Shown here piece after piece: positions 702-6,358 of a stretch of DNA of 6,358 bases. The notes under the pieces were generated by a model. It was not told the origin of the DNA. It worked only from the letters and a program-made list of their open reading frames with translations, and did no database searches. The stretch comes from a virus: positions 1 to 6,358 of IMG/VR virus record IMGVR_UViG_3300022758_000022; one strand, given 5' to 3'. Made by a program: the position numbers and the translations under genes. The first letter of the stretch is position 1. Every line of letters starts with the position of its first letter.

Positions 702-898
702 AATTCAGAATATTGAAATGTTAAATTAACAATAGTATATCTACGATTCAAATAAGACTTAACTACAGGAGTCTTCAATACATAAGACACAGCATGAGAA
801 AGAGTACAGCCTGTGAAAGGATCAAGGGAAAAAGACGAGACAGCTAAGTCAGTGTCGGAAGAAAAAGTAACGGCAACAGATGAAATATTTTTAGACAT
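698..898 (-). CDS. Hypothetical 66-aa protein
   Basis: ATG at 896..898 and TGA at 698..700. It is the first ORF after the long intergenic region, lies on the same strand as all other genes, and has a 4-nt ATGA overlap with the next ORF. I recognise no motif. Confidence 0.55.
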   Translation of the reverse strand: MSKNISSVAVTFSSDTDLAVSSFSLDPFTGCTLSHAVSYVLKTPVVKSYLNRRYTIVNLTFQYSEL

Positions 899-1019
899 AA
901 GCGCTATTTTTTTTAATTATAATACAATCACGGAACAAAGGAACGTTTTTTTTTTGAAAACACAAAATAAAATGAAGTTTTTTTAAGAAGGATACTGTCA
1001 TTTATCTAATATAAGGCAA
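899..1019 (-). promoter_or_regulatory. A+T-rich half of the single long intergenic region; probable promoter/leader for the small-ORF cassette and Rep
   Basis: G+C is about 25% (15 of 60 counted for 901..960). On the plus strand there are homopolymer tracts T8 (907..914), T10 (946..955) and T7 (978..984). A TATAAT-like hexamer on the minus strand (916..921) lies 18 nt upstream of the ATG at 898. I found no perfect Bacteroides-type TAnnTTTG box. Confidence 0.3.
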
Positions 1020-1029
1020 GAAGGACCGA

Positions 1030-1054
1030 GTTTTTGGGGAGATTAACCAAAAAC
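1030..1054. repeat. Inverted repeat / hairpin with an 8-bp stem
   Basis: gtttttgg (1030..1037) is the exact reverse complement of ccaaaaac (1047..1054). The loop is 9 nt, ggagattaa. Confidence 0.7.
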
Positions 1055-1225
1055 CCTCCGGGATAAATGAAATAGGCTTCGCCAATAATATAGGGGGTAT
1101 ATAGGGAAGGAGAGAAAGCGTAGAAAGGGAATTAGCGTCCTAATGAAAACAGATAAGGGCAGAACTGCACCCACTCTACGAGCGTGGTGTGCGGCTCCGC
1201 CGATATCAAGGTGCTAGACGCTAAG

Positions 1226-1241
1226 GGACGTTACCACGTCC
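1226..1241. repeat. Inverted repeat / hairpin with a 6-bp G+C-rich stem and a tetraloop
   Basis: ggacgt (1226..1231) pairs with acgtcc (1236..1241). The loop is tacc. Confidence 0.7.
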
Positions 1242-1246
1242 AGTTA

Positions 1247-1275
1247 CCTGAGGTCCGTTCAGGCCACGGAGGCCT
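1247..1275. repeat. Cluster of three mutually overlapping 5-bp inverted repeats (alternative hairpins, or an H-type pseudoknot topology)
   Basis: The pairs are cctga (1247..1251)/tcagg (1259..1263), tccgt (1254..1258)/acgga (1266..1270) and aggcc (1261..1265)/ggcct (1271..1275). The cluster ends 8 nt from the VP2 stop codon. Confidence 0.55.
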
Positions 1276-1283
1276 ATCGACTA

Positions 1284-2393
1284 TCAATAGCGATTATAGG
1301 TTCTATTGCCATACACATAAGTATTACGCGCACCGGGTTTACGAAGATTACCTGCACTACCGATAGCATTTCCGACAACACCAAGAGCATTAAGACCTTC
1401 AGACCAATAACGTTTATCAAATTGCCATTGAGAATTAAGAGCATCCATACGAGACTTCAATACAGATGCGGGTACATATTTTTTATCTCCTTCAATAAAT
1501 GGAGAATCAATATCATAAGACGCCGCATACTGTGCGTTGAGAGCTTTTATATAAGAATCAGAAGTGGCTTCAGCAATCTTATTATCTATCTGTAATCCTT
1601 TAGCTTCAGCAGCCATAACCAGGCGTTTGACAATTTCAGACTTAACCTGATGATACTTCAAATGTCCGGACGCCATAGAATCATAATACTGAGCAGCCAT
1701 TAAATCCAATTGAAGACGCTGACCTTCATCAAGATACTTATTAAGGATCTGCTTAGACTTATTATCCAACAAAACACTAAGGTGTTGAGCCTGGACCAAA
1801 TTACCGGACCACTGCATATTACGAAGATTCTGCCGATCAGTCTGAAACTGAAGACCAGCACGAGCAAGACCAGTCACTTGAGACCATTTTTTATACTCAG
1901 GACCTAATTTCCACCAATCAACATTAGAAAGAATACTGTTAGCCTGTGCGTCAAATAAAGACTTTTGACTCTGAAGAGACTGAACATTAGCATTCGTTTC
2001 CTTGGTTTGATTCGCAATTTGAAGAGCCGAAGAAAGAGTATTAGAAAGGCCGGAAAAATCCTGACGTTGCATAGCAAGAGGAGATGCTGCAGAAGCAGGA
2101 GAGGTACTACCAGAAGATTGAGCCGTACCAGCACTTCCTCCATTCATCATTAAATAAGGATTCAATCCAGCGCTTTCCAGACGAGAACGCTGAGCAGAGG
2201 CAGAATTATACTCATTGGTACGATTCCACATATCCAATTGAAACTGCCGAGCCTTTTCAGCTTCGGCAGCATTAAATTCATTATTCATCTGATTGATAGC
2301 CATATTGTTCTTATTGGTTTTATTCGTAGAAACAGCATTACCAATAGAAGAAACAACATCACCAACAATAGGAATAAAATCAAGAAGTCCCAT
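1284..2393 (-). CDS. VP2: Minor capsid / DNA pilot protein VP2 (phiX174 H analogue), 369 aa
   Basis: ATG at 2391..2393 and TGA at 1284..1286. The N-terminal block, GLLDFIPIVGDVVSSIGN...NNEFNAAEAEKARQFQLDMWNRTNEYNSASAQRSRLESAGLNPYLMM, matches the conserved N-terminal signature I recognise from Microviridae VP2 (..F..E..R.F...M....YNS...Q..R...AGLNP.L). It is followed by a low-complexity Ser/Ala/Gln-rich and coiled-coil-like region. Confidence 0.85.
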   Translation of the reverse strand: MGLLDFIPIVGDVVSSIGNAVSTNKTNKNNMAINQMNNEFNAAEAEKARQFQLDMWNRTNEYNSASAQRSRLESAGLNPYLMMNGGSAGTAQSSGSTSPASAASPLAMQRQDFSGLSNTLSSALQIANQTKETNANVQSLQSQKSLFDAQANSILSNVDWWKLGPEYKKWSQVTGLARAGLQFQTDRQNLRNMQWSGNLVQAQHLSVLLDNKSKQILNKYLDEGQRLQLDLMAAQYYDSMASGHLKYHQVKSEIVKRLVMAAEAKGLQIDNKIAEATSDSYIKALNAQYAASYDIDSPFIEGDKKYVPASVLKSRMDALNSQWQFDKRYWSEGLNALGVVGNAIGSAGNLRKPGARNTYVYGNRTYNRY

Positions 2394-2395
2394 AA

Positions 2396-2905
2396 CTATT
2401 CAGATTGAGATTCAGAAGAATTACTTTCAAGAGAAGATTCAGCAGACTCCTTCTCAAGAGAAATACGAAAAGCTTCGTCCTCAATAGATTTAGCCTGATC
2501 AATAAGATACTCACTCCACGCAATCAACTCAGAGGGAGATTGAAGATGACGAGATTTAATAGTATCTAGGATCTGATCATCAGACATACAATCCATTTGA
2601 GACTGAAGATTGCTAGATTTAGGACGACGCATATCAATCATAGATTGAACAAATCCAGATCCGTATTTCTTAGCCATATCAGCAGCATGAAGAAGCATAC
2701 TAACATCAGAACGAATACGAATAGCTTCATCGTCATCAGTTCCTATTTTTTCAAAACGAAAAGGTTCAGTAGGGAGCTCTTCCAAAACAATATCAGGCTC
2801 AGAAGAGGCACAAATAGGGCAAATCTGAACTTCTCGAACAGGTGTACATTTTCGGTAACCTGGACCAAAACATGTACAAGATTCTTTTTTCTTTTCCTCT
2901 TTCAT
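2396..2905 (-). CDS. Putative internal scaffolding-like protein (VP3-like), 169 aa, with an N-terminal Cys cluster and an acidic Ser/Glu tail
   Basis: The track starts this ORF at a TTG (2909..2911). The first ATG is at 2903..2905, 12 nt after the VP1 stop. TAG at 2396..2398 lies 2 nt before the VP2 ATG. The protein is small and acidic, and it sits between the capsid and pilot genes. The function is inferred from position and composition only. Confidence 0.6.
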   Translation of the reverse strand: MKEEKKKESCTCFGPGYRKCTPVREVQICPICASSEPDIVLEELPTEPFRFEKIGTDDDEAIRIRSDVSMLLHAADMAKKYGSGFVQSMIDMRRPKSSNLQSQMDCMSDDQILDTIKSRHLQSPSELIAWSEYLIDQAKSIEDEAFRISLEKESAESSLESNSSESQSE

Positions 2906-2917
2906 AATCAAGAAAAT

Positions 2918-4834
2918 TTAATAAGGCACACCGTCAGCAGACAATGGGCGAGTTACATAACAACCAACATTACAATTCACTAACAACTGATCCGTTTCCC
3001 AAGTAGAGTCAACCTTAACAGCAAAAATATCATCAAGAGTATTAGGATTGACTTTAAAAAATGGCCAAGTAACACCCTTATAAGCAGACAAATTACCACC
3101 GAACAAAGAATAAAGAAACGAATCATCAATAGGAGCAACCCAATCCTTGAGAGTAGTGGTAAACGCACCGTGAATGCGATCAACCTTAGTTTTCCAGTTA
3201 TAATAACGAGGATTATAACCTAAAATCTTATCCGCAGAATCTACATTGGAATAAAGATTAGAATTCATTAATTCAACAGCAGGAACAGATTCCATACCAA
3301 TGTTGTCAAATTCAGGAATAGGAAGATCTTCCACAGATGTAACAAGATTCTGACCGTCAGGTCCACTAATTGCATAATCTAATAAAGGTGTAGCATGATA
3401 AATACACATAATAATGTAATAACCAGAACCTGTACTGAATGTCATAGATCCTTGACCAGATCCAACGCCTTTACCATAAATATAGGCCTGATCAGTTTCA
3501 GAAGACAACTGCTGATTAACGACCTCAGATATATCAAGATTACGAGCAATACCTCCGATATACTTAGCCATATGAGATTCAGACTGAGGAACATTCACTC
3601 CAAAATGAGCCTTAATCTGATCTCTATAATTGGCATCTACAGACTGGGTAATTTCTTTCCACTTCTGAAGAGCCTCCGCTTGACGAAGAGCAAGAACAGA
3701 AAATTTCAAATTTAGATCAGGAGAATTTCCAAGAACAGCCCATAAATTAGAGTTTTGACGAACAGAAATAGAATCCGGAAATCGAGGAAATATGTCCGTG
3801 CCCTTTTCGGTAGAAGGAGTACCGGTATTAACAGATTGAACTCTCGTCTTAAACTGATGAAAAGTACCGGTATCATTCGTACCGTCATAAGCACCAACAG
3901 GAACCTTAGAACCTGAAATACTCATAGTTCCAAGATCTACTACTGCAAGATCTCCAAATTGAGCATTCGGGAGAATACCCATAAACTTATCCTTATTCCA
4001 ATTGGCGTAACGAAGAGAAAACAAATTATCTCGCTTCCAATAGGCATTATTAGAAGGAATAGAAGAAGCAAGATTCGTAGCACCAAATAAATTACCTGAA
4101 CCTTGATACCAATCAAAGTTATAAGATGTAGGATCAGCATTTTCCCATTGAGACCAACGGAAAAAGTCTTGATAGATCTTCTGATAAGTAGCAATGAAAA
4201 ATAAATTAACAGCTAAATTAACATTGTACTTCTGAGAATAAGAAGAAGAGTCAGACAAAGATGCCTGCATATTCCACCAACGATTAGTACCAGTACCAAT
4301 CCAAGAAGCAGAAGAATCCACAACATTTCCATAATCAAACATAGTTAACAACTTATGATTAACATCACCTCGATTATAACCGAAAATATTACCATAACCT
4401 TCAATAACAGATACATCATCTCCCAGTTGAACAGGATCACCAGCAGCAAATTTCAACGCAGAACTAAGATCAGACAAAGTACAATAAGGAAGATCTCCTT
4501 TAACAGTAAGATTGGTTAATAAGTCCTTAGACTGAATAGGAGCCTTTTCTCCCATTTGAATCACAGCAGAATCAAATGATTTCCAAATCAAATTACAAGG
4601 AACTGCGAAGAAATCAAAATACTCACGAATACGAGTATACGCAGAAGTCTGCACCGGACGAGTACGAGTAAAATACTCAAGATTAAACCTGTACGTACAA
4701 TTAGGAACCGCAAAATCGGTCCATACAGGCAATAATTCTCCAACCTTTGCAGTAAAACAATTTTTAGCAGAGATATCATGACCAGACTTATGAGGTCTGT
4801 TCTGTAACTCTTTAAGACCAGTAAAATGAGCCAT
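2918..4834 (-). CDS. VP1: Major capsid protein VP1 (phiX174 F analogue), 638 aa, Alpavirinae-like
   Basis: ATG at 4832..4834 and TAA at 2918..2920. The N-terminus, MAHFTGLKELQNRPHKSGHDISAKNCFTAKVGELLPVWTDFAVPNCTYRFNLEYFTRTRPVQTSAYTRIREYFDFFAVPCNLIWKSF, is the characteristic microvirus capsid N-terminal jelly-roll signature. The length of about 640 aa fits the Bacteroidales-associated lineage rather than gokushoviruses. Confidence 0.96.
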   Translation of the reverse strand: MAHFTGLKELQNRPHKSGHDISAKNCFTAKVGELLPVWTDFAVPNCTYRFNLEYFTRTRPVQTSAYTRIREYFDFFAVPCNLIWKSFDSAVIQMGEKAPIQSKDLLTNLTVKGDLPYCTLSDLSSALKFAAGDPVQLGDDVSVIEGYGNIFGYNRGDVNHKLLTMFDYGNVVDSSASWIGTGTNRWWNMQASLSDSSSYSQKYNVNLAVNLFFIATYQKIYQDFFRWSQWENADPTSYNFDWYQGSGNLFGATNLASSIPSNNAYWKRDNLFSLRYANWNKDKFMGILPNAQFGDLAVVDLGTMSISGSKVPVGAYDGTNDTGTFHQFKTRVQSVNTGTPSTEKGTDIFPRFPDSISVRQNSNLWAVLGNSPDLNLKFSVLALRQAEALQKWKEITQSVDANYRDQIKAHFGVNVPQSESHMAKYIGGIARNLDISEVVNQQLSSETDQAYIYGKGVGSGQGSMTFSTGSGYYIIMCIYHATPLLDYAISGPDGQNLVTSVEDLPIPEFDNIGMESVPAVELMNSNLYSNVDSADKILGYNPRYYNWKTKVDRIHGAFTTTLKDWVAPIDDSFLYSLFGGNLSAYKGVTWPFFKVNPNTLDDIFAVKVDSTWETDQLLVNCNVGCYVTRPLSADGVPY

Positions 4835-4844
4835 AATAAAAAAA

Positions 4845-6358
4845 TTAAATATTCAACAATAAACCACTAAGATCATTAAATTCCTTATGTTTAACCTTAT
4901 CCACGCACGCCTTCCGATTGTTGGCGGTCAACTCTTTAAGGAATTCTTGAGATAAAACGGGATCATATGAATAAGTACGTTTCTCAAACTCAGAAAAAGA
5001 TTCTGTCAATGTATAACCACCTTTATCAACAGTTCTAAATCTAGTAACAAATTGAGAATTAAGAACCTCATTAGAAACAGTACGATGAAACAAGAATGAA
5101 CGCTGATTATCATTACAATTCTCTAAAAACGCAAAGTAATCAGAAAGACGACGCCGAGCAAATTCATTCCAATAATTATCAGATGCATCCATAAGAGCAT
5201 AAATAGGATCTCGACGATAAACATCTACATATTCAAACAAATTCCAAAACCTAGCAGAGCGAATGACCATGTTGAAAAGTCTGTAAAATTTACTATAAAT
5301 TTGATCATAAGTAAGACAATGCCAATACTTACATTTAGGAGCGTCAAGACGAACAGTAGTAACTATTAGCTCATCATCAAAATGAATAAACCCTTTATCT
5401 TCACGGTCTAAGAAAAAATTAGTATACGCATGAGCAAGTTGAGATACAGGGGAAACAGACTTATCATAAGTTATGTCCAAATATCCGTAACGAATGAGCC
5501 TCTCGGGTGCAAAGAACGCAGCTGAAAATAAGAGAGCACTGCTATGTGCAGATTTGCAAACAAGATTCGAGAATCTAGGGAATACGGTATGTTTATACGA
5601 CCGTGTAGGGTAGATCTGCTTAACTTTACCATTAACAGAGAGGCTTTCTCCATTAAGGAGGATAGAGGACATTTTGTCAAGTTCATGTATCGTGGCTTGA
5701 GTGGGAAAGACATGATTGTTTGAATATCCTTTAGAGTGGAGGGAACGCGCTCTAATCTCTTTGTGCTGGAGATATAATGAAGGTAAGCATACATTGCTAT
5801 TAACATACGACGCAACGTAGGAAGCAGAGCCTCCTCGCGATAGTTCACAAGTTGTACGACCGTAGGACCAACTCTCAGATACAAGTTGCCGTATAACCGA
5901 GGAGAGTTCGTCCGAGTTAAAGAATAATAACAAATGCCAATGCGGACGGTATGTCCGAGGACCATATTCTGATACACCGTAAAAACGTATTTCTTCATTG
6001 TATTTATTTTTTGAATGAAATCTTAAACGCTTAAGAAATTTCTGACAATCAGAAGTATTACAATAAGGGATATAATTATCACAATCTTCAAAACGAGGAT
6101 AAACAACACATTTACGAAGAAAGTCATAACGTCCATGACTCTTAACAATAATATCCTGGTATTCAAGAGAAGTCATAGAATGAGTAATTTCAAAAAAAGG
6201 ATCTTCTATAATTCTATCCTTACCATTAAAAACAGGAATACGTAAATTCCTATTAACAGAAGAGAAAGAATAACTAAAACGATTATTATCCAAAGAATCT
6301 ACAGATTTAAGTTCTATATAAGGAAGATACTGATCTTCATAAGAAAGCCAAACAAAAA
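4845..6358 (-). CDS. VP4: Replication initiation protein VP4 (HUH endonuclease), main part. The frame is open to the window end and continues at 127..314 through the circular junction. Full length is 566 aa.
   Basis: TAA at 4845..4847. The HUH motif RPHWHLLLF has HWH at 5934..5942. The paired catalytic tyrosines SYVASYVNS have Tyr codons at 5817..5819 and 5805..5807. The track's start at 6293 is a TTG inside the continuous frame. Confidence 0.93.
   Translation of the reverse strand, partial: FVWLSYEDQYLPYIELKSVDSLDNNRFSYSFSSVNRNLRIPVFNGKDRIIEDPFFEITHSMTSLEYQDIIVKSHGRYDFLRKCVVYPRFEDCDNYIPYCNTSDCQKFLKRLRFHSKNKYNEEIRFYGVSEYGPRTYRPHWHLLLFFNSDELSSVIRQLVSESWSYGRTTCELSRGGSASYVASYVNSNVCLPSLYLQHKEIRARSLHSKGYSNNHVFPTQATIHELDKMSSILLNGESLSVNGKVKQIYPTRSYKHTVFPRFSNLVCKSAHSSALLFSAAFFAPERLIRYGYLDITYDKSVSPVSQLAHAYTNFFLDREDKGFIHFDDELIVTTVRLDAPKCKYWHCLTYDQIYSKFYRLFNMVIRSARFWNLFEYVDVYRRDPIYALMDASDNYWNEFARRRLSDYFAFLENCNDNQRSFLFHRTVSNEVLNSQFVTRFRTVDKGGYTLTESFSEFEKRTYSYDPVLSQEFLKELTANNRKACVDKVKHKEFNDLSGLLLNI
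5471..5998 (-). CDS. Candidate overprinted gene (175 codons) in the +1 frame inside Rep; hypothetical
   Basis: ATG at 5996..5998 and TAA at 5471..5473, on the same strand as Rep but shifted one nucleotide. It is more than twice as long as any other same-strand alternative-frame ORF in the track (next longest 84 aa). The predicted product is basic and Leu/Arg-rich. Confidence 0.3.
   Translation of the reverse strand: MKKYVFTVYQNMVLGHTVRIGICYYSLTRTNSPRLYGNLYLRVGPTVVQLVNYREEALLPTLRRMLIAMYAYLHYISSTKRLERVPSTLKDIQTIMSFPLKPRYMNLTKCPLSSLMEKASLLMVKLSRSTLHGRINIPYSLDSRILFANLHIAVLSYFQLRSLHPRGSFVTDIWT
6232..6358. repeat. Terminal direct repeat, copy 2 (circular-genome assembly overlap)
   Basis: Same 127-nt string as 1..127. 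It implies a circular unit of 6231 nt. Confidence 0.97.

What the first reader, a model, noticed from the sequence alone, without database searches (positions are those of the whole stretch)
1020..1283. G+C-rich, hairpin-dense non-coding island in an A+T-rich ssDNA genome
The genome has a single sizeable non-coding region. Its VP2-proximal 260 nt jump to about 54% G+C (65 of 120 counted for 1141..1260), against roughly 25-28% in the adjoining A+T-rich tract and at the window ends. The island contains exact inverted repeats at 1030..1054 (8 bp), 1226..1241 (6 bp, tetraloop) and 1247..1275 (three interleaved 5-bp pairs), plus an 8-bp long-range pair ttagcgtc (1132..1139)/gacgctaa (1217..1224). 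It also has a run of near-pure purine on the plus strand (1091..1130), which is pyrimidine on the virion strand. Intergenic stem-loop clusters of this kind are complementary-strand origins in other ssDNA coliphages: the phiX174 primosome assembly site in the F-G spacer, the phage G4 DnaG-recognised stem-loops, and the M13 minus-strand origin. An equivalent element has not, to my knowledge, been defined for Bacteroidales microviruses. Alternatives are a structured ncRNA/3'UTR of the late transcript, a host-derived attP-like segment for XerCD-type integration, or a packaging signal. I could not match it to any RNA family from memory.
Basis: partly seen in the sequence, partly recalled or inferred. 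Interest (0 to 1): 0.78.

Follow-up and report, generated by a model that had tools for sequence, protein, structure and literature searches.

The report
Shared structured origin-like cassette, gut microviruses
The G+C-rich island is real and belongs to a previously undescribed, strongly conserved hairpin cassette found in about 100 gut microvirus genomes. It most likely works as folded single-stranded DNA on the packaged strand, as a host-dependent start site for second-strand synthesis. Its orientation suggests that one whole clade of these phages packages the strand antisense to its genes.

Summary
In detail: 65/120 G+C in 1141-1260, the three tested inverted repeats are exact, and the ssDNA fold of the - strand has z = -4.1.

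The non-coding region holds two conserved modules:
- **Module 1 (1097-1278)** occurs once per genome in about 100 microvirus contigs of two very divergent lineages that infect Bacteroidaceae. 96.7% of its pairs are canonical and 20 of 28 pairs show compensatory changes.
- **Module 2 (993-1087)** is shared by the wider window lineage. 99.5% of its pairs are canonical.

There is no tRNA, Rfam, literature or host-genome match.

Module 1 is antisense to the genes in the window lineage and sense in the other lineage. The synonymous-site skew is mirrored in the same way (69% T versus 65% A). The cassette therefore always has the same orientation relative to the T-rich strand.

Wobble intermediates (31:1) and GNA/GNRA loops also place the selected fold on the T-rich strand, which is the window's - strand and its coding/virion strand.

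The two lineages have barely alignable Rep proteins but share hosts. A sister clade carries a different structured module at the same site.

A Rep nick site at the phiX-like core is rejected. A + strand ncRNA is disfavoured.

The parts
899..992 (.). A+T-rich tract (24% G+C) between the structured region and the first small ORF (698-898, - strand). It contains a T-run (+ strand, about 980-987) that is conserved only in close relatives.
993..1087 (-). Module 2: a three-way junction conserved across the wider window lineage. It is made of S1, S2, a mini-hairpin and S3.
   Evidence: On alignment A5, 99.5% of cells are canonical against 76% in shuffles, and 13/22 pairs are compensatory.
998..1070 (-). 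S1 helix: 998-1006 pairs with 1062-1070 (TCATTTATC/GATAAATGA on the + strand).
   Evidence: Compensatory variants include TCACTTATC/GATAAGTGA, AATTTTTC/GAAAAATT and GAGTTTG/CAAACTC.
1030..1054 (-). S2 hairpin: 1030-1037 pairs with 1047-1054, with a conserved loop at 1038-1046 (TTAATCTCC on the - strand; consensus TTTACCTC).
   Evidence: 7 of 8 pairs with compensatory changes
1055..1061 (-). Mini-hairpin: CC-GGA-GG on the - strand. The loop is always GNA or GNAA on that strand.
   Evidence: Observed loops: GGA, GAA, GTA, GCAA, GAAA, GTAA. One variant has a compensated stem (TCC/GGA).
1075..1083 (-). S3 mini-hairpin: GGCGAAGCC on the - strand (variants GGCGAAAGCC, GACGAAGTC, GGTGAAACC). It contains GCGAAGC.
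1016..1021 (-). Invariant unpaired CTTG(Y)C on the - strand (CTTGCC in the window), inside the S1 internal loop and followed by an A+T-rich stretch. This is a speculative candidate for a lineage-specific Rep site.
   Evidence: invariant columns. Inference only.
1097..1278 (-). Module 1: the widely shared cassette. The covariance-model match reads 1097-1278 on the + strand at 171 bits. The selected fold is inferred to be on the - strand.
1097..1165 (-). A tract that is 75% pyrimidine on the - strand (purine-rich on +). Its sequence varies but its composition is conserved. It starts with the conserved box GTATATAGGG (1097-1106 on +).
1166..1191 (-). P2 long hairpin: outer arms 1166-1171/1186-1191, inner hairpin 1172-1184, and one bulged base.
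   Evidence: 8 of 11 pairs compensatory
1192..1202 (-). P3 hairpin: CGGC-TCC-GCCG on + (loop GGA on -).
   Evidence: the middle pair occurs as G-C, C-G and A-U
1202..1224 (-). Conserved junction: GATATCAAGGTGCTAGACGCTAA on + (TTAGCGTCTAGCACCTTGATATC on -). It contains a 2-bp mini-helix, G1213-C1221 and C1214-G1220.
   Evidence: both pairs compensatory. The junction is not invariant; variants are listed.
1225..1242 (-). P4 hairpin: GGACGT 1226-1231 pairs with ACGTCC 1236-1241 (loop GGTA on -).
   Evidence: 6 of 7 pairs compensatory
1255..1269 (-). P5 hairpin, found in B-type cassettes: CCGT 1255-1258 pairs with ACGG 1266-1269.
   Evidence: 2 of 4 pairs compensatory
1284..2393 (-). Flanking gene: the VP2-like DNA pilot protein. 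Its stop codon at 1284-1286 abuts the cassette.

Best explanation
**What it is.** The island is the main part of a roughly 290-nt replication-control region that acts as folded single-stranded DNA on the packaged (T-rich) strand. In this window that is the - strand, which is also the coding strand.

**Module 1 (1097-1278).** Module 1 is a horizontally exchangeable, host-dependent cassette. After the ssDNA enters a Bacteroidaceae cell, its hairpins (P2, P3, the junction mini-helix, P4, P5) would stay free of single-strand-binding protein. Together with the conserved junction they would present the adjacent pyrimidine-rich tract to a host priming enzyme, either primase or RNA polymerase. That enzyme would start complementary-strand synthesis. 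In short, it would be a single-strand (minus-strand) origin.

**Module 2 (993-1087).** Module 2 is universal in the window's Rep lineage. It may be the lineage-specific partner, possibly the Rep-side origin.

**Shown versus inferred.**
- Shown: the conserved family, the structure with covariation, the strand of selection, the orientation rule, and the independence from Rep relatedness.
- Inferred: that the T-rich strand is the packaged strand in both lineages, and that the activity is priming.
For: 1. **A real family.** The cassette occurs as one copy per genome in about 100 microvirus-sized contigs.
2. **Structure.** On A4, 96.7% of cells are canonical against 82% in shuffles and 27-50% with slid partners, and 20/28 pairs are compensatory. 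On A5 (module 2), 99.5% are canonical and 13/22 pairs are compensatory.
3. **Strand of selection.** Outside three conserved helix-terminal positions, the non-Watson-Crick cells are 31 A.C against 1 G.U in + orientation. That means G.T wobbles on the - (T-rich) strand. The counts are 14:0 in the window lineage and 17:1 in the other.
4. **Loops.** Module 2 loops are always GNA or GNRA closed by C-G on that strand, and they include GCGAAGC and GCGAAAGC.
5. **Window fold.** The - strand ssDNA fold has z = -4.13 against -2.49 for the + strand.
6. **Orientation rule.** The cassette is antisense to the genes wherever the coding strand is T-rich (13 + 22 genomes). It is sense wherever the coding strand is A-rich (43 + 18 genomes). 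There are no exceptions.
   - NNT preference is the known signature of the single-stranded form in ssDNA phages (PMC3278643).
   - phiX174, SpV4 and Chp2 show the same preference.
7. **Host dependence.** The Rep proteins of the two lineages are barely alignable (BLASTP E = 0.018), yet the cassette is 80-90% identical by BLAST. One Bacteroidaceae CRISPR array targets both lineages.
8. **Cassette behaviour.**
   - Both A- and B-type cassettes occur in both lineages.
   - A sister clade has a different structured module of about 260 nt at the same site while keeping module 2.
9. **Wobble scarcity.** The covariation is almost purely Watson-Crick. By my own judgement this fits DNA better than RNA.
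Against: - No priming activity, and no similarity to any characterised origin, was or could be shown.
- The orientation rule rests on two viral lineages plus a few inferred cross-lineage transfers, so the number of independent events is small.
- That the T-rich strand is the packaged strand in the second lineage is inferred. It contradicts the textbook positive-sense polarity of Microviridae. phiMH2K also has an A-rich coding strand.
- Family-wide, the minimum free energy is slightly lower on the + strand in 17-18 of 20 sequences. Three near-invariant G.U-compatible positions exist on the + strand.
- Several helices are short (2-4 bp), which is more typical of RNAs with tertiary structure.
- The cassette is clade-restricted (22/76 and 18/35 relatives). 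If it is essential, other modules must substitute for it.
Confidence: 0.5

Rival explanations
1. Module 1 is an independently transcribed structured non-coding RNA read from the window's + strand, antisense to the viral genes here. It would bind a conserved host factor.
For: - The architecture looks RNA-like: a multi-helix junction with conserved joining nucleotides and short helices.
- Three near-invariant G.U-compatible positions lie on the + strand.
- The + strand minimum free energy is slightly lower family-wide.
- A conserved T-TA box sits directly 5' on that strand.
- An autonomous gene would tolerate either orientation relative to the phage genes.
Against: - The wobble asymmetry at variable pairs is 31:1 against this strand.
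- No promoter-like element is conserved upstream: one sigma-70-type hit, as many as shuffles give, and no shared Bacteroides-type motif in the alignments.
- The strict link between orientation and strand skew is not predicted.
- There is no Rfam match even at E <= 10.
- G.U pairs are almost absent outside the three terminal positions.
Confidence: 0.15
2. The element acts as RNA in the sense of the T-rich strand. In the window lineage it would be a 3'-UTR or processing/stability element of the late (VP2) transcript. In the second lineage it would be an antisense RNA.
For: - The wobble asymmetry and the GNRA-type loops lie on the T-rich strand.
- In the window that strand is the mRNA sense, and the region directly follows the VP2 stop.
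Against: - In the second lineage this strand is antisense to all genes. One common RNA role would therefore need a dedicated antisense promoter there.
- This reading does not explain the mirrored synonymous-site skew.
- G.U usage is very low for an RNA.
Confidence: 0.12
3. The conserved junction is the viral-strand (+) origin. Rep would nick TAGCACCTTG^ATATC on the - strand, by analogy with phiX174 CAACTTG^ATA.
For: - The window's - strand matches the phiX174 recognition decamer at 9 of 10 positions. The phiX174 origin is annotated at 4306.
- GATATC is palindromic.
- In Chp2 a similar CTACTTGATC sits in the loop of a 14-bp intergenic hairpin.
Against: - Sampling that does not require the hexamer shows it varies: GATACT, GGTACT, GATGCT and GATACTATGG occur in many genomes.
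- Genomes whose proteins are about 95-97% identical, including the ~346-aa protein taken to be Rep, carry different hexamers.
- The cassette is shared by lineages with barely alignable Reps.
Confidence: 0.04
4. It is a host-derived or host-matching recombination site (attP or a dif-like XerCD substrate) used for integration. Integration of this kind was proposed for Bacteroidetes microvirus proviruses.
For: - Integration of Bacteroidetes microviruses at dif-like sites has been proposed (PMC3091885).
- CTX-type phages use a folded ssDNA attP (as cited in that paper).
Against: - The 19-base core pattern has no exact match in 185,579 bacterial and archaeal species genomes, as attB or as a provirus.
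- I recognised no dif-like arms by eye.
- Freely covarying stems with conserved loops are not what a recombinase core site looks like.
Confidence: 0.03
5. It is another ssDNA-level cis element on the packaged strand, for example a packaging or condensation signal, or a termination/re-initiation signal of rolling-circle synthesis.
For: The same strand and orientation evidence as for the best explanation applies.
Against: - Packaging and termination in phiX-type phages are coupled to Rep and capsid proteins (own knowledge). Those proteins differ greatly between the two lineages.
- Sharing of the cassette across lineages fits a host-dependent step better.
Confidence: 0.1

Closest known systems
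Single-strand origins (ssoA, ssoU, ssoT, ssoW) of rolling-circle plasmids
   Same: - Non-coding, about 150-300 nt, and heavily structured, with conserved unpaired motifs.
- Active only in one orientation relative to the displaced strand.
- Host-specific rather than Rep-specific.
- Exchanged as cassettes between unrelated replicons (own knowledge; the general scheme is in PMC5714925).
- The - strand even carries TAGCGT or TAGCGA, which resembles the ssoA CS-6 motif. A 6-mer could match by chance.
   Different: - There is no sequence or structural homology.
- The host is Bacteroidaceae rather than Firmicutes.
- The replicon is a phage.
- The helices are shorter.
- RNA-polymerase priming is untested.
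Complementary-strand origins of ssDNA coliphages: the phiX174 primosome assembly site, the G4 primase site and the M13 minus origin
   Same: - Intergenic hairpin clusters on the virion strand.
- Recognised by host priming machinery (PMC5714925, PMC9865509).
   Different: - There is no similarity in sequence or hairpin layout.
- The priming enzyme is unknown.
- Here the element is a swappable cassette shared by two lineages.
Conserved intergenic hairpins of reekeekee- and roodoodoo-microviruses
   Same: - Conserved DNA hairpins with compensatory substitutions in microvirus intergenic regions.
- They were tentatively linked to negative-strand initiation, and their function is also unproven (PMC9865509).
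   Different: - Different clades, hosts and sequences.
- Those are single hairpins, whereas this is a multi-helix cassette with a defined orientation rule.
phiX174 viral-strand origin (gene A protein site CAACTTG^ATA)
   Same: The window's - strand reads CACCTTGATA, a 9/10 match.
   Different: - The motif is not conserved within the family.
- It does not track Rep.
Hyperstable DNA mini-hairpins d(GCGAAGC) and d(GCGAAAGC), and GNA/GNRA loops
   Same: S3 reads exactly GCGAAGC or GCGAAAGC, and the mini-hairpin loops are always GNA or GNAA on the T-rich strand. The stability of these motifs is from my own knowledge (Hirao and co-workers).
   Different: These are motifs, not a functional family. 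On the opposite strand the same loops could be read as UNCG.

Membership tests
Rolling-circle single-strand origin (sso / ssi type) | Non-coding, extensively base-paired region conserved through compensatory change | tested here: met
Rolling-circle single-strand origin (sso / ssi type) | Fixed orientation relative to the displaced or packaged single strand | tested here: inconclusive
   The orientation is fixed relative to the T-rich strand in all genomes. Wobble pairs also lie on that strand. That the T-rich strand is the packaged one in the second lineage is inferred, not measured.
Rolling-circle single-strand origin (sso / ssi type) | Depends on host factors, not on the replicon's Rep | tested here: inconclusive
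   Indirect support only: the cassette is shared by lineages with barely alignable Reps and common Bacteroidaceae hosts.
Rolling-circle single-strand origin (sso / ssi type) | Supports site-specific priming of complementary-strand synthesis | not testable with these tools
   This needs an in vitro or in vivo replication assay.
ssoA subtype | Conserved RS_B and CS-6 (TAGCGT/A) motifs | tested here: inconclusive
   TAGCGT or TAGCGA is present on the - strand of B-type cassettes, and GAGCGT in A-type cassettes. A 6-mer could match by chance. I did not look for RS_B.
phiX174-type viral-strand origin | Conserved gene A recognition and cleavage sequence that co-varies with Rep | tested here: not met
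   The match is 9/10 in the window, but the motif varies within the family and among genomes with near-identical proteins.
Known RNA families (Rfam 15), tRNA and tmRNA | Match to a curated covariance model, or detection by ARAGORN | tested here: not met
   (no match in 899-1283 even at E <= 10)
attP / dif-like integration site | Sequence identity with a host chromosomal site, or presence at provirus borders | tested here: not met
   (0 matches to the 19-base core pattern in 185,579 species genomes)

The most novel reading that the evidence does not exclude
The cassette marks the packaged strand. It always lies the same way on the T-rich strand, its wobble pairs lie on that strand, and the second lineage has mirror-image synonymous-site skew (65% A on the coding strand). 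Taken together, these suggest that a whole clade of gut microviruses packages the strand antisense to its genes. That would make them negative-sense Microviridae. The cassette would then be a host-specific minus-strand origin that is traded between positive- and negative-sense lineages.
Probability: 0.4. Interest if true: 0.9.

Novelty: new member of a known kind. Interest (0 to 1): 0.78.

Why it matters
- **An open question becomes testable.** Replication origins are experimentally defined in Microviridae only for phiX174-type coliphages. For the abundant gut microviruses of Bacteroidaceae nothing is known. This work gives a precisely bounded, structure-annotated candidate element, plus a covariance model that finds it.
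- **It behaves as an exchangeable cassette.** The element moves between very different phage lineages that share hosts.
- **It offers a marker for the packaged strand.** The orientation rule, together with the mirrored codon-position skew, gives a cheap sequence-based way to ask which strand is packaged. It raises the possibility that some microviruses are negative-sense, which would change textbook statements about the family.
- **Practical use.** The element is a natural target for engineering or rebooting synthetic Bacteroides microviruses. It could also serve as a host-range marker.

Tried and rejected
**Tests with a negative result**
- **tRNA/tmRNA and Rfam.** There are no matches in the island.
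- **Literature.** Full-text searches for the core sequence and for microvirus structured RNAs or origins found nothing specific.
- **Host origin or attP.** There are no matches to the core in species genomes.
- **Small ORF in the island.** Rejected by inspection, because hairpin indels are not multiples of three.

**Readings I held for a while and then dropped**
- **+ strand ncRNA.** It rested on both orientations being found, G.U:A.C = 80:18, and UNCG-like loops.
  - It was demoted when the G.U excess proved to come from three helix-terminal positions.
  - The variable pairs showed the opposite asymmetry.
  - The loops read better as GNA/GNRA on the other strand.
- **Rep nick site at the palindromic GATATC / phiX-like CTTGATA.** Rejected after re-sampling without that hexamer.

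**Technical dead ends**
- **Ascertainment bias.** My first sample required the 15-mer, which made it look invariant.
- **Bare 15-mer hits in larger contigs.** These are coding-region chance matches in collagen-like GATGYQ repeats.
- **Closing helix and junction pairing.** A helix between the 5' box and the post-P4 linker, and pairing of the junction with the CUACCUU segment, are compatible with the sequences. Neither is supported by compensatory change.
- **Promoter and terminator scan.** The sigma-70 scan was uninformative.
- **RNAalifold on the mixed alignment.** It failed because the two subtypes differ in 3' architecture.

Full report
**The window**

The window is a complete circular microvirus genome of 6,231 nt; positions 1-127 repeat at 6232-6358. 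All large ORFs lie on the - strand:
- a Rep protein (ends at 4845; Pfam REP_ORF2-G2P, with a weak Phage_GPA match);
- the major capsid protein at 2918-4834 (Phage_F);
- an ORF at 2396-2911;
- a VP2-like pilot protein at 1284-2393;
- three small ORFs at 698-898, 504-701 and 317-490.

The only sizeable non-coding stretch is 899-1283. The closest public records are MT837631 (about 84% identity) and Dulem viruses 244/245 (about 77%).

- G+C is 65/120 in 1141-1260, against 24% in 899-1019 and 36.6% genome-wide.
- The three tested inverted repeats are exact, and 1091-1130 is 85% purine on the + strand.
- Folding is better than dinucleotide shuffles, and more so on the - strand. As ssDNA, 993-1283 gives z = -4.13 (0/200 shuffles as good) on the - strand and z = -2.49 on the + strand.

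**A conserved family**

BLASTN of the region hit the close relatives. It also hit otherwise unalignable microviruses from rat, human, civet and rodent samples, but only over window positions of about 1150-1276. Pattern scans of IMG/VR and a covariance model (R1) then recovered the element in about 100 microvirus-sized contigs.
- It occurs once per genome.
- In the window the match is 1097-1278 at 171 bits.
- Unrelated control contigs gave nothing.
- Two subtypes (A and B; the window is B) differ in their 3' architecture.

**Structure**

Hand-defined helices P2, P3, P4 and P5, plus a 2-bp helix inside the junction, hold up on a model-based alignment of 62 distinct B-type copies.
- 96.7% of cells are canonical. 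Shuffles give 82%, and sliding the partners gives 27-50%.
- 20 of 28 pairs show compensatory changes.

Just upstream lies a second module at 993-1087: S1, S2, a mini-hairpin and S3, forming a three-way junction.
- It is conserved in at least 58 of 77 genomes of the wider window lineage.
- 99.5% of its cells are canonical and 13 of 22 pairs are compensatory.
- One relative has an insertion of about 230 nt between the two modules, so they are separable.

**Not something already catalogued**

There is no tRNA or tmRNA and no Rfam match in the region even at E <= 10. Full-text literature searches found nothing, including a search for the core sequence. The 19-base core pattern has no exact match in 185,579 species genomes.

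Conserved intergenic hairpins with compensatory changes have been reported for other microvirus clades. Their role there was left open (PMC9865509).

**Orientation and strand asymmetry**

The element-bearing genomes fall into two lineages.
- In the window lineage (gene order Rep-VP1-VP3-VP2) the cassette is antisense to the genes and abuts the VP2 stop.
- In the second lineage (VP1...VP2-Rep) it is sense and follows the Rep stop.

I first read this as orientation independence. The coding strands, however, have mirror-image composition at four-fold degenerate sites.
- Window lineage: T = 0.69 and A = 0.12.
- Second lineage: A = 0.65 and T = 0.14.
- This holds whether or not a genome carries the cassette.
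- phiX174, SpV4 and Chp2 are T-rich like the window lineage (0.61, 0.65, 0.50).
- NNT preference is the documented signature of the single-stranded state in ssDNA phages (PMC3278643).

The cassette therefore always has the same orientation relative to the T-rich strand: 13 + 22 antisense genomes and 43 + 18 sense genomes, with no exception.

**Which strand folds**

The overall count of G.U against A.C (80:18 in + orientation) first pointed to the + strand. That excess comes entirely from three near-invariant positions at helix ends.

At all other pairs the non-Watson-Crick cells are 31 A.C against 1 G.U in + orientation, spread over nine pairs. The split is 14:0 in the window lineage and 17:1 in the second. 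An A.C on the + strand is a G.T wobble on the - strand. The tolerated intermediates of compensatory evolution therefore sit on the T-rich strand in both lineages.

The loops agree. On that strand S3 reads GCGAAGC or GCGAAAGC, and the mini-hairpin loop is always GNA or GNAA. Read on the other strand, the same loops looked like UNCG, but that reading needs a shifting closing pair.

One point goes the other way. The minimum free energy across the family is slightly lower on the + strand, because of the three G.U-compatible positions.

**Rep independence and cassette behaviour**

- The Rep proteins of the two lineages share only the HUH-type family and are barely alignable (BLASTP E = 0.018). Yet the cassette is 80-90% identical by BLAST.
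- Both subtypes occur in both lineages.
- Within each lineage only the closer relatives carry the cassette: 22 of 76 and 18 of 35.
- In the window lineage, genomes without it carry a different conserved, structured, G+C-richer module of about 260 nt at the same place. They keep module 2.
- A CRISPR array points to a shared host family.
  - Its 47-nt repeat is exact in Phocaeicola and Bacteroides genomes.
  - About half of its spacers match these microviruses of both lineages, including a 28/28 match to MT837631.
  - One spacer lies on the cassette junction itself.

**Mechanism proposed**

Put together, the region is best read as a cis-acting ssDNA structure on the packaged strand, and module 1 as a host-dependent, exchangeable cassette. 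The known kind of element with this set of properties is the single-strand (complementary-strand) origin of rolling-circle replicons.

On the window's - strand a tract that is 75% pyrimidine (1165 down to 1097) lies between two hairpin clusters. One cluster is P5, P4, the junction, P3 and P2. The other is module 2. This layout is what one expects for a priming site kept free of SSB.

The priming activity, the enzyme and the start site are inferred. Module 2 is universal in the window's Rep lineage and carries an invariant unpaired CTTG. It may be the Rep-side element, but that is speculation.

**What was rejected**

- **Rep nick at the junction.** The window's - strand reads CACCTTGATA, against phiX174 CAACTTG^ATA. 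This looked attractive until sampling without that hexamer showed frequent variants (GATACT, GATACTATGG and others). These variants occur even among genomes with 95-97% identical proteins.
- **+ strand ncRNA.** This is disfavoured by the wobble asymmetry, by the lack of any conserved promoter-like motif, and by the skew-locked orientation.
- **mRNA-embedded RNA role.** This cannot be common to both lineages, because the element is on opposite strands relative to the genes.

**Limits**

- Only two viral lineages, plus a few inferred transfers, underlie the orientation rule.
- Which strand the second lineage packages is inferred from composition and wobble asymmetry, not measured.
- The shuffle controls do not correct for phylogeny.
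- Some alignments were fitted to the model.

Noticed in passing
L002-L007, L015-L143 and L243-L285 (second lineage), compared with window 1284-6293: Four-fold degenerate sites on the coding strand are 50-80% A in every genome of the second lineage. They are 53-74% T in the window lineage and in phiX174, SpV4 and Chp2. This mirror-image skew suggests that the second lineage packages the strand antisense to its genes.
   Followed up: partly
L028 (IMGVR_UViG_3300008060_000094), - strand, about 3038-7998: A 65-repeat CRISPR array sits on a contig labelled viral. Its 47-nt repeat is exact in Phocaeicola vulgatus, P. faecalis, P. sartorii and Bacteroides spp. About half of its spacers match these microviruses, two of them inside the cassette.
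   Followed up: yes
window 993-1087: A second structured module, with almost purely Watson-Crick covariation and GNA/GNRA loops, is shared by the wider window lineage. It carries an invariant unpaired CTTG on the - strand (1021 down to 1018).
   Followed up: partly
L181-L240 (for example L196 3526-3785): Sister-clade genomes lack module 1. At the same position after VP2 they have a different, highly conserved, structured module of about 260 nt ('type C', also containing GCGAAGC), followed by module 2.
   Followed up: partly
L132, between the two modules (about 230 nt): One relative carries a G+C-rich insertion between module 2 and module 1.
   Followed up: no
L004, L017, L024, L101 and others, about 80 nt upstream of A-type cassettes: A-type cassettes are preceded by two further covarying hairpins (GTTTTCG-TTTCA-CGAAAAC and GTCCGT-AACGA-ACGGAC). 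In the second lineage these start right after the Rep stop.
   Followed up: no
window 897-908 and 1286-1297: A 12-nt inverted repeat (11/12 complementary) brackets the whole non-coding region. I did not check it in relatives.
   Followed up: no
L156 (Chlamydia phage 2, AJ270057), about 2903-2941: A perfect 14-bp intergenic hairpin carries CTACTTGATC in its loop, which resembles the phiX174 cleavage sequence. It is a possible gokushovirus origin.
   Followed up: partly
L155 (Bdellovibrio phage phiMH2K, AF306496): Its coding strand is A-rich at four-fold sites (A 0.47, T 0.24, G 0.07), unlike phiX174, Chp2 and SpV4.
   Followed up: no
window 1202-1216 and homologues: The junction exists in recurrent 'alleles' (GATATCAAGG, GATACTAAGG, GATACTATGG) that appear in both lineages and both subtypes. 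This suggests recombination between cassettes.
   Followed up: partly
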